From assembly GCA_964478375.1 (NCBI GenBank), contig CAYZIQ010000001.1:8019-57418 (forward strand): DNA of 49,400 nucleotides. The letters are read 5' to 3'. The notes beneath the pieces were generated by a model, which had not been told where the DNA came from, ran no database searches, and worked only from the letters and a program-made list of their open reading frames with translations. This document shows, in pieces, positions 19,407-28,381 of the stretch (positions are counted from its first letter, which is position 1; each line of letters starts with the position of its first letter). Both the position numbers and the translations under genes were made by a program. Origin of the DNA: an uncultured Chloroflexus sp. Its GTDB lineage: Bacteria; Chloroflexota; Anaerolineae; Anaerolineales; Villigracilaceae.

Positions 19407-20252
19407 TTACAAGAAGGTTTCCATCAACTCGCCGACCTGAGCCATGTTGAACACCGGCCCGTCCACGCAGATGAGCTTCGTGCCCAGGTTACAGCGTCCG
19501 CATTTGCCCAGGCCGCAGTGCATGCGCGCCTCCAGCGTGACGTAGCTATCCTTCAAGGCAAAACCCATCTGCGCCAACATGCGCGTCACGTAGTAGATCA
19601 TGATCGGCGGACCACAGGTAATGGTGACGGCGTTCTCCGGCGAGGGGGCCACCTTTTCGAGCAACTGGGTGATCAGGCCTACGTTGTGATCCTACTTCTC
19701 GTCCGCCTGGTCAACGGTCAGGTGCAGGCTGGTATCCGGCGCGGCGCGCTACTCGTCGTACTCGTCGGTAAAGACCAGCAAGGAAGGGAGCCGGGCAGCC
19801 CACAGGATGGTCAACCGGCCGTAGTCGGCGCGGTGATCCAACACAGTCTGGATGACGGGACGCAGCGGCGCACCGCCGATCCCGCCGCCCAGTACGATGA
19901 GATTCTTGCCCTTGAATTGATCCATCGGGAAGCAATTGCCCAACGGGCCGCGCACGCCGACGATGTCGCCTTCGCCCAGCTCATGCAGGCCGGTCGTCAC
20001 GGACCCGAGCCTGTTGACCGCGAAATCCACGCACGGCCCACGCTGGGGCGTGTTGGCGATGCCGAAGGGCGCCTCGCCGAATCCGAAGGCCGAGACGAAG
20101 GCAAACTGTCCGGGCTGATAGGCGCTGAAAGCTTCGCTGCCGCCGTTCATCAACTCAACGCGGAAGAGTTTGATCTCGGTCGCCAGGTCTTTGACCGCGA
20201 CCAGCTTGCCCAGAAAGGGCTTCATCGGATTTTGGTTTCGAGAATCGCTCAT
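19407..20252 (-). pseudogene. FlxA/HydG/AsrB-like FAD-NAD(P)-binding oxidoreductase with C-terminal 2Fe-2S site; single frame interrupted by two in-frame TAG codons (19749-19751, 19692-19694)
   Basis: The ORF-track pieces 19749..20273 and 19407..19664 and the 84 nt between them are one frame: ...LVFTDEYDE-TAG-RAAPDTSLHLTVDQADEK-TAG-DHNVGLITQLLEKVAPSPENAVTITCGPPIM...CGLGKCGRCNLG. Start placed at MSDSRN (SD aaggag). Either a pseudogene or read-through. Confidence 0.7.
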
Positions 20253-20260
20253 GACTTTCT

Positions 20261-20295
20261 CCTTACGTTTCACGCTTTATGCCTTAATGCGATTC
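20261..20295. repeat. Heptamer tract forming the leader/SD region of the flxA-like gene
   Basis: ccttacg tttcacg ctttatg ccttaat gcgattc. Confidence 0.6.
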
Positions 20296-20371
20296 TCCGC
20301 TGAGGGGGCTCCCACGCCCCCGCATCGCAGGCATGGGAGCCCGCTCCACAGAAATCTATGATTTACTGAAT

Positions 20372-25800: not shown

Positions 25801-26294
25801 TCGGCTAGCTTCAGCGAGGCCTCGATGCCGGCGATCCCGCCGCCCACCACCAGCGCGGATTGTGTCATCTTCACCGGACGCATCTCCAGCGGATTGTGGT
25901 GATGGACGCGCTGCACCGCTGCCGCGACCATCGCTTTCGCCTTGGCCGTCGCCTGGGCGCGGTCATCCACCACCCACGAGCAATGCTCGCGGATATTGGC
26001 CATCTGGAAGAAGAAGGGGTTGAGTCCGCCTTCCTGACAGGCGCGGCGGAAGGTAGGCTCGTGCATCAACGGCGAGCACGAGGCCACCACCACCCGGTTG
26101 AGGCCAAGCTCTCGGATGTCTTGCTTGATCAGGTCTTGGCCTGGGTCTGAGCACATGTAGGTGTAGTCACGGGCGACGGCCACGCCGTCGAGACCTTTCG
26201 CAAACTCGGCAACGCCAGCCACATCCACCGTCGCGGCGATGTTCGTACCGCAGTGACAGACGTAGACACCCGTGCGTATCTTGGAAAGGTTCAA
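22806..26294 (-). CDS. hdrA: HdrA-like flavoprotein with in-frame TGA (probable selenocysteine, 25701-25703) and an inserted NfnB/GltD-like NAD(P)H-FAD module; about 1162 codons
   Basis: TTG start with SD gaggaggt. ORF-track pieces 25701..26294 and 22806..25685 are one frame: ...[67 protein letters not shown]. Inserted segment PCRDACP...SVCGRVCNHRCEDAC...[30 protein letters not shown]...VVVLGGGNVALDAART. Confidence 0.8.
25640..25700 (-). other. Candidate bacterial SECIS region downstream of the hdrA1 UGA
   Basis: mRNA UGA AUACUGACGCCGAAGAU GGUGUCC GUU GGACGCC ACGAAAACAUC: a 7-bp stem (one G-U) with a GUU loop. The block is 46/47 identical to the equivalent block in hdrA2. Confidence 0.35.
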
Positions 26295-26395
26295 GTGGGC
26301 ACCTCCTCATTGATGTTATTTCTGCTCATGGTTTTCATAAGAGTTGCGCGCTCCCTGGCGTCTGGTTGGCGACCCAAGCCGCCGGGGTGGATGGA

Positions 26396-28381
26396 CTATA
26401 CTGTGACCAAAATACCTTCTAGCTCTGCGAGCACTTCGTCCAGTGTAAAGCCATGCTGAATGGCTGCGCCGGCAGGACAGGCAGCCGCGCACGCACCGCA
26501 GCCCTTGCACAGCACCTCGTTGACGTAGGCCACTTGCTTCCCGTCGTAGTCCACCATCGAAATCGCGCTGTATGGGCACAGCCCTTCGCAAGTGCGGCAG
26601 CCGCCGCATTTCTCGGCGATAACATAGCTGGTGAAAGGATCTAGCGATACCGAACCGGCGTCCATCAAAGCCAGTGCTGCGGCGGCCGCGGCGGCGCCCT
26701 ACGCCACGCTGTCGGGAATGTCTTTCGGCCCCTGGCAGGCTCCCGCCAGGAAGATGCCGTCGGTGGTCGTCTCGACCGGCGCCAGCTTGGGATGCTTCTC
26801 CAGGAAGAAACCGTCCGCGCTCAGGCTGACGCCGAAAGTCGCGCCGACTTTGTGCTGGTCGGCCTGCGGCTCGATGCCAGTGCTCAACACCACCATATCC
26901 ACCAGCGTTTCCCGTTCCTCGCCCGTAAACACGTCCACGGCGATGACCGCCAGCCGTCCATCGCGCGGTTCCACACGGATATCTTTACCGCTACGGAAGA
27001 ATTTCACGCCCTGGCGCTGGACGCGCTCATAAAAAGCCTCGTAATCTTTACCAAAGGTGCGCATGTCGCGGTAGAACTCGAACACCTCGGCATCTACGTA
27101 ATCGCGGATCAACGTAGCCAGCTTGAGTGAATACATGCAGCACACCCGCGAGCAATGCTCGTTCTGGTCGCCGCGGCTGCCTACACAGTGCAGGATGGCA
27201 ATCCGCTCCGGCTTGCGCCCGTCCTTGAGCAATACCTGGCCAGTGGTCGGCCCGCCGGAGTTGATCAGCCGCTCGAATTCCATGCCGGCCAAGACGTTAT
27301 CAAGCACGCCGTATCCGTACTGGGGTGAGCGCTTCGGTTCGAAATCTTTGAAGCCGGTCGCCAGCACGATGGTGCCGACCTCAATGTCAACCAGCTGCTC
27401 TTTCTGCTCGAAGTCAATCGCTGCGCGCGGACAGAATTTCTCACAGGCGCGGCATTTGCCGCTCTTGAAATAGGCGCAGTTGACTGCGTCAATGACCGGC
27501 ACGCGCGGCACCGCCTGGGCAAAGGGGAAGTAGATCGCCGGGCGCTTGCCCAGCCCTAGGTCGAATTCGGAGGGGATCTTCTTCCACGGGCATTTCTCGA
27601 CGCATGTCCCGCATCCGGTGCAAAGCTCCTCGTTCACATAGCGGGGCTTGCGGCGCACCGTGACGGTAAAATTGCCGACGTACCCCGAAACTTTCTCCAC
27701 CTCGCTGTAGCTCAGCAGGGTGATGTTTTCGTGGCGTCCAACGGACACCATTTTGGGTGTAAGTATTCAGGCGGCACAGTCTAAGGTGGGAAAGGTTTTG
27801 TAGAGGCGGGACATGTGCCCACCAATCGAGGGCTCGCGCTCCACCAGGTAGACGTGCTTGCCCGAATCGGCCAGGCGCAGGGCCGCTTCGATACCGGCGA
27901 TGCCTCCGCCCACAACCATGGCGGAGGGCTTGACTGCCACCTGACGCATCTCCAGCGGTTCGTGCCAGGCGACGCGGCGCACCGCTGCCGAGACCAGAGT
28001 CTTGGCCTTCTCGGTGGCCTTGACGGAATCGTCCGACACCCACGAGCAGTGCTCGCGGATATTAGTCATCTGGAACAGGAACGGGTTCAGGCCGGCTTCC
28101 GCACATGCCCGCCGGAAGGTGGTCTCGTGCATCAACGGCGAGCAGGAAGCCACCACCACCCGGTTCAGGCTTGCATTGCGAATATCGTCTTTGATGAGAG
28201 CCTGACCAGGGTCCGAGCACATGTAGGCATAGTGACGGGCGACGGCCACGTTCCCCAGTGTGGAGGCAAATTCGGTGACCGCTTCCACATCCACCATGCC
28301 TGCGATATTGGTGCCGCAGTGACAAATATAAACGCCTACACGGGGCGTATCACGTGTTGGCGTCTTTTCGGCTGGCGTCAT
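26396..28381 (-). pseudogene. hdrA: Second HdrA paralogue (about 661 codons): in-frame TGA at the Cys/Sec position (27767-27769) plus an in-frame TAG at a conserved Gln position (26699-26701)
   Basis: One frame joins three ORF-track pieces: ...[31 protein letters not shown]...GACQGPKDIPDSVA-TAG-GAAAAAAAALALMDAGSVSLDP...CGGCRTCEGLCPY...CKGCGACAAACP. Start placed at MTPAEK (SD aaggag). Type is uncertain: read-through versus nonsense. Confidence 0.7.
27706..27766 (-). other. Candidate SECIS region downstream of the hdrA2 UGA
   Basis: Same GGUGUCC GUU GGACGCC hairpin. Synonymous sites are identical to hdrA1 here, but they differ in the 12 nt right after the UGA. Confidence 0.35.

What the first reader, a model, noticed from the sequence alone, without database searches (positions are those of the whole stretch)
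19692..26701. Three in-frame TAG codons at conserved Trp, Trp and Gln positions within one operon
flxA-like gene: ...LVFTDEYDE-TAG(19749-19751)-RAAPDTSLHLTVDQADEK-TAG(19692-19694)-DHNVGLITQLL... As I recall, family members have E-W and G-W-x-G-x-V-G at these two spots.

hdrA2: ...KDIPDSVA-TAG(26699-26701)-GAAAAAAA... The paralogue in this same window reads KDIPDTVAQAGGAAA.

The frames are otherwise intact, with no frameshifts, and the downstream domains are fully conserved (2Fe-2S site, ferredoxin Cys clusters).

Each TAG is one transition away from TGG or CAG. TAG also terminates at least six ORFs here, with stops at 4248, 6117, 17218, 26396, 30935 and 41487. A global reassignment is therefore unlikely.

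Possible explanations:
- very recent nonsense decay of a redox operon
- an amber suppressor tRNA in this organism
- context-dependent read-through
- population or sequencing artefacts in a metagenome-derived assembly

Three nonsense changes clustered in one operon, with none detected elsewhere in 49 kb, is not what random error predicts.
Basis: partly seen in the sequence, partly recalled or inferred. Interest (0 to 1): 0.7.

Follow-up and report, generated by a model that had tools for sequence, protein, structure and literature searches.

The report
Three young nonsense mutations in one operon
Three premature TAG stop codons in two genes of a redox operon of an uncultured Anaerolineales bacterium are real and found in many samples, but they look like very recent gene-killing mutations in one strain, not a change in how the genetic code is read.

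Summary
There are in-frame TAGs at 19749-51 and 19692-4 in an FNR-like/2Fe-2S gene ("flxA") and at 26699-701 in hdrA2. The same alleles occur in at least 8 other public assemblies that are 99.8-100% identical to the window, so they are not assembly errors.

The TAGs are confined to this one near-clonal lineage:
- All 120 closest protein homologues and 80 species-level genomes keep Trp at the two flxA sites.
- An flxA allele 95.5% identical in DNA still has TGG at both.
- The hdrA2 site is Q, Y or H in relatives (CAG or TAT in the nearest DNA).

TAG is an ordinary terminator here. It ends hdrA2 itself, at the same position as in sister genomes. No tRNA, Rfam match or stable RNA structure accompanies the TAGs.

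The two in-frame TGA codons of hdrA1 and hdrA2 are a useful contrast. They are conserved in 62 related genes and are followed by an invariant SECIS-like hairpin, which is what real recoding looks like.

One oddity remains: there is no other sign of decay, neither excess missense changes nor frameshifts. The mutations are therefore either very young or tolerated.

Best reading: incipient pseudogenes (about 0.7). Natural amber suppression or read-through is not excluded (about 0.1-0.15). Interest is low.

The parts
19407..20252 (-). flxA-like gene (FNR-type FAD/NAD(P)-binding domain plus C-terminal 2Fe-2S domain; 281 codons, TAA stop), interrupted by two TAG codons
   Evidence: Pfam NAD_binding_1 and DHODB_Fe-S_bind. 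The best solved relative is the Pyrococcus sulfhydrogenase I gamma subunit, 9nez_C, E=7e-48. Orthologues are all 277-281 aa.
19749..19751 (-). TAG1, codon 168 of flxA, at an invariant Trp (TGG in relatives)
19692..19694 (-). TAG2, codon 187 of flxA, at an invariant Trp (TGG in relatives)
26396..28402 (-). hdrA2 (heterodisulfide reductase subunit A homologue, 668 codons) with one in-frame TGA (Sec position), one in-frame TAG, and TAG as its own terminator
   Evidence: E=2.7e-220 to HdrA 5odc_A over the full length; Pfam; terminator
26699..26701 (-). TAG3 in hdrA2, at a Q/Y/H-variable position just before the C-terminal ferredoxin domain (CAG or TAT in nearest relatives)
27767..27769 (-). In-frame TGA at the Cys/Sec position of hdrA2 ([14 protein letters not shown])
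   Evidence: TGA in 62 related hdrA genes, Cys codon in 8
27733..27749 (-). SECIS-like hairpin GGTGTCCGTTGGACGCC, 18 nt downstream of the hdrA2 TGA
22806..26294 (-). hdrA1, an HdrA with an inserted GltD/NfnB-like NAD(P)H domain; intact apart from the Sec TGA at 25701-25703; reads DTVAQAGGAAA at the site paralogous to TAG3
25667..25683 (-). SECIS-like hairpin downstream of the hdrA1 TGA
21396..22751 (-). FlpD/MvhD-like plus 4Fe-4S fusion gene, intact
   Evidence: Pfam FlpD E=1e-47; no departures at invariant columns
20372..21394 (-). Fer4_22 iron-sulfur subunit gene, intact
   Evidence: found with exactly this sequence in 6 other contigs

Best explanation
The three TAG codons are recent nonsense mutations fixed in one near-clonal Anaerolineales lineage. 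Two are TGG>TAG and one is most likely CAG>TAG, so all are G:C>A:T transitions.

They truncate the FNR-like NAD(P)H-binding subunit and one of the two HdrA paralogues of an HdrA-HdrA(NfnB-like)-FlpD-FeS-'FlxA' electron-transfer operon. These two genes are therefore incipient pseudogenes. TAG is read as an ordinary stop. The complex is lost, or at most made at trace level by background read-through.

Shown:
- the TAGs are real;
- they are lineage-specific;
- they sit at positions that are sense codons in every relative;
- TAG is used as a terminator;
- there is no cis-element.

Inferred:
- no full-length protein is made;
- the operon is dispensable in this lineage;
- the mutations are too young for further decay to be visible.
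For: 1. Lineage restriction. 120/120 homologues at 78-95% identity have W/W. So do 80 species genomes. The closest flxA allele (L099/L100, 95.5% nt identity, carrying the lineage-specific S175) has TGG at both sites. hdrA2 relatives have CAG or TAT.

2. A degenerate-pattern scan of JGI metagenome contigs found no other TAG1-context hit. For TAG3 it found only the same lineage plus one unrelated contig.

3. TAG is the terminator of hdrA2 itself, of the InhA-like gene and of the DAGK gene, at positions shared with sister genomes. 13 of 61 long ORFs end in TAG.

4. There is an internal positive control for real recoding. Both hdrA TGA codons are conserved in 62 related genes and are followed by an invariant hairpin. 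The TAGs have neither conservation nor structure (z = +0.5 and +1.5). There is no Rfam hit and no tRNA.

5. All the TAGs lie in one operon and none elsewhere in 49 kb. Relaxed selection on one operon predicts this. A genome-wide suppressor does not.

6. All TAG-bearing assemblies are 99.8-100% identical, with no SNPs inside hdrA2 or the flxA core. This means very recent common ancestry, so there has been little time for further decay.
Against: There is no other sign of decay.
- Polarised changes on the window branch are flxA 5 missense / 27 synonymous (sister branch 5/21), hdrA2_C 8/54 (sister 9/33) and hdrA2_N 3/23 (sister 3/22).
- There are 0-2 singleton departures per gene at invariant columns, no more than in typical orthologues.
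- There are no frameshifts.

Under neutral mutation one expects about 7-10 missense changes at invariant columns, and about 22-29 missense changes in all, per nonsense mutation. Three independent nonsense hits with nothing else therefore have a post-hoc probability of roughly 0.01-0.03. If the two flxA TAGs, 57 nt apart, are counted as one event, the probability is about 0.1-0.3.

The allele persists in at least 8 assemblies.

The hdrA2 site tolerates Q, H and Y, which are residues that near-cognate read-through of UAG could supply.
Confidence: 0.7

Rival explanations
1. The TAGs are translated, either by an amber suppressor tRNA or by efficient near-cognate read-through in this lineage. A Trp-inserting tRNA(CUA) would restore both flxA Trp residues and put an aromatic residue at the Q/Y/H site of hdrA2. 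The operon would then stay functional and remain under purifying selection.
For: There is no detectable relaxation of selection and there are no secondary lesions in either gene. The allele is stable across many samples. The hdrA2 site accepts Tyr, His and Gln. All three stops are TAG and none is TGA or TAA.
Against: No tRNA is found in 49 kb. TAG is kept as the terminator of hdrA2, InhA and DAGK exactly as in sister genomes, and its frequency as a stop is normal. The TAGs are absent from all relatives. With a genome-wide suppressor the TAGs should be scattered, but 2 of the 3 ancestral Trp codons of one gene are hit and none of the other 22 TGG codons of the operon, nor any other gene of the window. 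'All three are TAG' is weak evidence: given W, W and Q(CAG) hit by transitions, the chance is about 0.25.
Confidence: 0.13
2. Adaptive loss of function. Knocking out this NAD(P)H-linked Hdr complex was advantageous in this habitat, so nonsense alleles were selected and swept. This would explain the clean background and the wide occurrence.
For: The pattern is nonsense-only, with no neutral decay. A near-clonal lineage is seen in many samples. Closely related genomes with an intact operon co-occur in what appear, from their accession series, to be the same studies (L100 and L010 alongside L001 and L002).
Against: One stop would be enough, so selection does not explain three. There is no independent evidence on the fitness effect. 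This reading cannot be told apart from neutral young pseudogenes with the data in hand. It is a sub-case of the best explanation and differs only in the cause.
Confidence: 0.1
3. Artefact of sequencing, assembly or a mixed-population consensus.
For: The sequence comes from metagenome assemblies. SNPs between assemblies are clustered in tracts that could be chimeric.
Against: Identical TAGs occur in at least 8 assemblies from three repositories, made with different assemblers.
Confidence: 0.02
4. For TAG3 only: a functional split gene. A truncated HdrA2 core and a separately initiated 89-aa ferredoxin domain would assemble after translation.
For: TAG3 lies 30-40 codons before the ferredoxin domain. 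Gene callers find an 89-aa ORF downstream. An unrelated metagenome contig (L098) has TAG at the same site with an intact downstream domain.
Against: The stop cuts the last conserved helix of the FAD domain (DIPDSVAQGAAAA, aligned to 5odc_A). No Shine-Dalgarno sequence or ATG is evident for the downstream piece. No orthologue among 120 proteins or 21 genomes is split. One extra hit among the many thousands of hdrA genes in that collection is compatible with background pseudogenes.
Confidence: 0.04

Closest known systems
Young bacterial pseudogenes created by nonsense mutation (G:C>A:T transitions TGG>TAG, CAG>TAG)
   Same: A stop at a position that is a sense codon in all orthologues; restricted to one lineage; the commonest class of spontaneous base substitution; clustered in one dispensable operon.
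   Different: There are three stops with no accompanying missense excess or frameshift, which is cleaner than simple neutral decay predicts. The lineage is widespread in public metagenomes.
Selenocysteine recoding of UGA in HdrA (present in this same operon)
   Same: An in-frame stop codon inside hdrA with the downstream frame fully conserved.
   Different: The Sec UGA is conserved in 62 related genes, sits at a Cys position and is followed by an invariant hairpin 18 nt downstream. The TAGs have none of these properties.
Pyrrolysine decoding of UAG (pylTSBCD; methylamine methyltransferases), including conditional decoding as described for Acetohalobium (from my own knowledge)
   Same: In-frame UAG in an anaerobe that otherwise uses UAG as a stop.
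   Different: Pyl codons are conserved in orthologues and occur in methyltransferase genes. Here the TAG sits at Trp/Trp/Gln positions, is not conserved, and no pyl gene or tRNA is in the window.
Amber-suppressor strains (e.g. E. coli supE/supF laboratory strains) and TAG-recoded phages
   Same: They would allow in-frame TAG to be read while TAG still ends many genes.
   Different: No suppressor tRNA was found. The window is a cellular Anaerolineales locus syntenic with other MAGs, not a phage. The TAGs are not spread over genes.
Desulfovibrio FlxABCD-HdrABC / sulfhydrogenase beta-gamma (HydBG) / MvhD-HdrA modules
   Same: An FNR-like 2Fe-2S subunit, a Fer4_22 subunit, an MvhD/FlpD domain and HdrA flavoproteins in one operon. 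FlxA-like is 9nez_C-like and HdrA2 is 5odc_A-like.
   Different: No HdrB or HdrC (CCG-domain) genes are in the operon. There are two HdrA paralogues, one fused to an NfnB/GltD-like domain. 'flxA' is therefore a functional analogy, not a demonstrated orthology.

Membership tests
Programmed stop-codon recoding (Sec-type) | The stop codon is conserved at the same position in orthologues | tested here: not met
   TGG/TGG in all 120 proteins and 80 genomes, and CAG/TAT/CAY at the hdrA2 site. By contrast, TGA is conserved in 62 hdrA genes.
Programmed stop-codon recoding (Sec-type) | A cis-acting RNA element next to the stop | tested here: not met
   Folding z-scores are +0.5 and +1.5 around the TAGs. 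There is no Rfam match.
Programmed stop-codon recoding (Sec-type) | A dedicated tRNA or decoding factor in the genome | not testable with these tools
   Only 49.4 kb of this lineage is available. There is no tRNA in it, and the contig could not be extended.
Pyrrolysine system | pylT/pylS/pylBCD genes, with UAG in methylamine methyltransferase genes | tested here: not met
   None is in the window. The TAG-bearing genes are an FNR-like reductase and HdrA. The rest of the genome is unavailable.
Genome-wide TAG reassignment | TAG is not used as a terminator | tested here: not met
   TAG ends hdrA2, InhA-like, DAGK and other genes at the orthologous C-termini.
Nonsense-mutation pseudogene | A stop replaces a sense codon that is present in close relatives, and is lineage-restricted | tested here: met
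Nonsense-mutation pseudogene | Relaxed selection or secondary lesions downstream | tested here: not met
   There is no excess missense on the window branch and no frameshifts. This is compatible only with very young pseudogenes.
Nonsense-mutation pseudogene | Absence of the full-length product | not testable with these tools
   Needs proteomics or ribosome profiling.
HdrA (heterodisulfide reductase subunit A) | Full-length similarity to structurally characterised HdrA, including the FAD domain, the inserted and C-terminal ferredoxin domains and the N-terminal Cys cluster | tested here: met
   E=2.7e-220 to 5odc_A, residues 18-664 aligned to 2-649
FlxABCD-HdrABC (Desulfovibrio type) | hdrB and hdrC genes and flxB/C/D neighbours | tested here: not met
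   The operon holds HdrA x2, a FlpD fusion, Fer4_22 and an FNR-like gene only. No CCG-domain protein is present.

The most novel reading that the evidence does not exclude
A free-living Anaerolineales lineage with an otherwise standard code carries a natural amber suppressor or has unusually efficient UAG read-through. The most economical version inserts Trp. TGG>TAG and CAG>TAG changes would then be nearly neutral, and the Hdr/Flx-like complex would still be made, possibly at a reduced and tunable level.
Probability: 0.1. Interest if true: 0.7.

Novelty: already known. Interest (0 to 1): 0.22.

Why it matters
If the main reading is right, this is an ordinary example of recent gene loss in one strain of an uncultured Anaerolineales bacterium. 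It is useful mainly as a caution: in-frame stops in metagenome contigs can be real alleles and still be pseudogenes.

It also gives a neat side-by-side contrast with genuine recoding. The Sec UGA codons in the same operon are conserved and carry a SECIS hairpin. The TAGs are neither conserved nor structured.

Only if the TAGs turned out to be translated would it matter more widely. It would then be a natural amber-suppressing bacterium outside the Pyl and Sec systems.

Tried and rejected
1. Assembly artefact. Rejected, because the same TAGs occur in at least 8 assemblies.

2. Conserved recoding. Rejected by 120+120 homologues, 80 genomes and two degenerate-pattern metagenome scans.

3. Hypermutation or a deaminase signature. 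The substitution spectrum of the window branch is balanced: C>T 18, G>A 10, T>C 15, A>G 14 in flxA. The mutated-strand contexts (CCA, CCA, GCA) share no known methylase or deaminase motif. They are not CCWGG (my own reading of the sequence).

4. A single mutational patch W168*-N175S-W187*. Rejected for S175, because the intact allele P0244/L099 already carries S175 with TGG at both sites.

5. Promoter disruption by the upstream IS200/RAYT-like gene. Rejected, because the same gene sits at the same place in sister genomes with intact operons.

6. Operon-wide decay. Not seen. The excess of changes in hdrA1 is a divergent allele of its inserted domain with conserved motifs, not decay.

7. A-to-I (TadA-type) mRNA editing of UAG to UIG. 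The sites lack the UACG tRNA-Arg-loop mimic, and no hairpin is present (plus my own knowledge).

8. Extending the contig to look for tRNA(CUA), pyl genes or more TAG-interrupted genes. The end genes were not on record. The species has no representative in genome contigs.

9. P0254/P0256, 92-aa 'MDAGSV...' proteins that looked like further split hdrA2 genes. This is a contig-edge artefact.

10. Literature searches for pyrrolysine in Anaerolineae and for the sample identifiers returned nothing relevant.
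Full report
**What is there**

The minus strand between about 19.4 and 28.4 kb carries one operon:
- hdrA2 (26396-28402);
- hdrA1 (22806-26294), an HdrA with an inserted GltD/NfnB-like NAD(P)H domain;
- a FlpD/MvhD-4Fe-4S fusion (21396-22751);
- a Fer4_22 iron-sulfur subunit (20372-21394);

HdrA2 aligns over its whole length with the structurally solved HdrA of Methanothermococcus (5odc_A, E=2.7e-220). The flxA-like protein is closest to the gamma subunit of Pyrococcus sulfhydrogenase I (9nez_C, E=7e-48). No hdrB or hdrC is present, so 'flxA' is an analogy rather than an orthology.

The operon and its flanks are syntenic with Anaerolineales MAGs such as GCA_030018695.1 (L014). The flanks are an aminotransferase and an IS200/RAYT-like gene upstream, and an InhA-like protease and a cupin downstream.

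**Check of the observation**

Both flxA positions are Trp in 120 of 120 closest homologues. In 80 species-level genomes, reaching down to archaeal homologues of 37% identity, they are Trp in 82/86 and 86/86 matches. The nearest DNA orthologues have TGG.

The nearest DNA has CAG or TAT. TAG is thus one step from both CAG and TAT.

A scan of all in-frame stops with coding-type GC3 on both sides found nothing else in the 49 kb, apart from two TGA codons at the Cys/Sec position of the two hdrA genes.

**Not an artefact**

Exact-protein look-ups recovered the same locus from ENA, JGI and Logan assemblies at 99.8-100% identity.
- TAG1 and TAG2 are present in L001-L004, L102 and L103.
- TAG3 is present in L001 and L097.
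- The truncated protein fragments are also recorded from an NCBI contig of 59 kb.

**Restricted to one lineage**

Every more distant relative is intact. The most telling comparator is P0244 (L099/L100). This is an flxA allele 95.5% identical in DNA. It already carries the lineage-specific Ser175 but has TGG at both sites. Between codons 24 and 201 it differs from the window by synonymous changes only, plus the two TAGs.

A degenerate-codon search of the JGI metagenome contigs for TAG in the TAG1 context found nothing (the pattern was validated on the window).

The same kind of search for TAG3 found the same lineage again (L097) and one unrelated short contig (L098). L098 has TAG at the same hdrA2 site and an intact downstream ferredoxin domain. 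Given the very large number of hdrA genes in that collection, I regard a single extra hit as compatible with background pseudogenes or errors. I record it as an open observation.

**TAG is a normal stop here**

hdrA2 itself ends in TAG, at the same position as in three sister genomes (TAA in L014). The InhA-like and DAGK genes also end in TAG, as in their relatives. 13 of 61 long ORFs end in TAG.

There is no tRNA gene and no Rfam family. There is no stable RNA structure around the TAGs (z = +0.5 and +1.5).

The operon supplies its own positive control for real recoding. The TGA codons of hdrA1 and hdrA2 (25701-3, 27767-9) are conserved in 62 hdrA genes of relatives, against Cys codons in 8. 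Each is followed after 18 nt by the invariant hairpin GGTGTCCGTKGGACGCC. The TAGs have none of these hallmarks.

**The remaining oddity**

Apart from the TAGs, the two genes look perfectly healthy.

Using L014 as outgroup, the window branch compares with the sister branch as follows:

| Gene part | Window branch (missense / synonymous) | Sister branch |
|---|---|---|
| flxA | 5 / 27 | 5 / 21 |
| hdrA2_C | 8 / 54 | 9 / 33 |
| hdrA2_N | 3 / 23 | 3 / 22 |

Across all operon proteins the window shows 0-2 singleton departures at columns invariant in relatives, no more than a typical orthologue.

A mutation-class count on the restored sequences gives about 7-10 missense changes at invariant columns, and 22-29 missense changes overall, per nonsense mutation under neutrality. 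Three independent nonsense hits with nothing else therefore have a rough post-hoc probability of 0.01-0.03. If the two flxA TAGs, 57 nt apart and both in a GACGAG(AAG)TGG context, are not independent, the figure is 0.1-0.3.

TAG-bearing assemblies show no polymorphism inside hdrA2 or the flxA core. The lineage is therefore very young, and there has been little time for further decay. The test also has a strong look-elsewhere bias, because the locus was picked out for having three stops.

**Interpretation**

The weight of evidence favours very recent nonsense mutations, that is, incipient pseudogenes of an apparently dispensable electron-transfer complex in one near-clonal Anaerolineales lineage (about 0.7). 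The supporting points are:
- lineage restriction;
- normal use of TAG as a terminator;
- no cis-element;
- clustering in one operon;
- all three changes belonging to the commonest mutational class.

Whether the loss was neutral or selected cannot be told.

Translation of the TAGs by a suppressor tRNA or by read-through is not excluded (about 0.1-0.15). It would explain the clean background. A Trp-inserting suppressor would even fit all three sites, since the hdrA2 site tolerates Tyr. But it has no positive support. It also predicts TAGs scattered over many genes, not 2 of the 3 ancestral Trp codons of one gene and none of the other 22 TGG codons of the operon.

I could not obtain more of this genome. 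The look-ups for the end genes failed, and the species has no representative in the genome collection. The decisive genome-wide tests therefore remain to be done.

**Comparison with known systems and novelty**

This is a known kind of thing, nonsense pseudogenes, sitting next to a known recoding system, selenocysteine in HdrA. It fails the defining tests for Sec-type recoding, for pyrrolysine and for TAG reassignment. It meets the positional and phylogenetic tests for a pseudogene, but not yet the relaxed-selection test.

Interest is low (0.22). The residual value lies in the small chance of natural amber suppression.

Noticed in passing
window 27767-27769 and 25701-25703 (TGA); hairpins 27733-27749 and 25667-25683, minus strand: Both hdrA paralogues carry an in-frame TGA at the FPTLDC(A/S)A-U-ILTPK Cys/Sec position. 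Each is followed 18 nt later by the hairpin GGTGTCCGTTGGACGCC. TGA and the hairpin are conserved in 62 hdrA genes of Anaerolineales relatives, while other phyla have Cys (8 genes). These are probably selenocysteine-containing HdrA proteins.
   Followed up: partly
window ~23,700-25,100 (hdrA1 inserted NAD(P)H domain): The GltD/NfnB-like insert of hdrA1 is far more diverged from the sister clade than the rest of the operon. There are 86 lineage-specific amino-acid changes on the window branch against 26 on the sister branch, plus in-frame indels. The nucleotide-binding motifs are intact. This looks like a swapped or recombined domain allele, not decay.
   Followed up: partly
L098 (Ga0172364_10121376) 243-283: An unrelated, much more divergent hdrA2-hdrA1 gene pair (Cys instead of Sec) has TAG at exactly the same ...KDIPDSVA*AGAAA... 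site, with an intact in-frame ferredoxin domain downstream. I judged it compatible with background, but this was not tested against a control count of CAG at the same site.
   Followed up: partly
window 20186-20248 (L001), 22298-22401 (L003), 24702-24785 (L002), 23754-23807 (L001), 13265-13278 (L001, L102): Differences between the near-identical assemblies are not scattered. They come in short dense tracts. The flxA 5' tract of L001 carries the alleles of the intact P0244/L099 type. This points to homologous recombination between co-occurring strains, or to chimeric assembly.
   Followed up: partly
window 26699-26701 and homologues: The hdrA2 site hit by TAG3 toggles between Gln (CAG), His (CAY) and Tyr (TAY) among close relatives. 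TAG is a one-step neighbour of both CAG and TAT.
   Followed up: yes
window 28708-29319 (-): An IS200/RAYT-like Y1 transposase gene lies between the aminotransferase gene and hdrA2. It is present at the same place in sister genomes (L011, L012) and partly deleted in L013, so it is an old resident and not the cause of operon inactivation.
   Followed up: yes
L054 10001-10832 and L074 10001-10851: The flxA orthologues in two long-read-derived MAGs (MFD04408.bin.2.99 and MFD00709.bin.3.105) are split into two tblastn segments in different frames. These are frameshifts, probably sequencing errors or independent pseudogenes.
   Followed up: no
L010 1080-10908: In one sister genome (ERZ27247683) the intact flxA is followed directly by an integrase, ParB-like, primase-polymerase and terminase genes. 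A prophage or integrative element is inserted where the window has the InhA-like protease.
   Followed up: no
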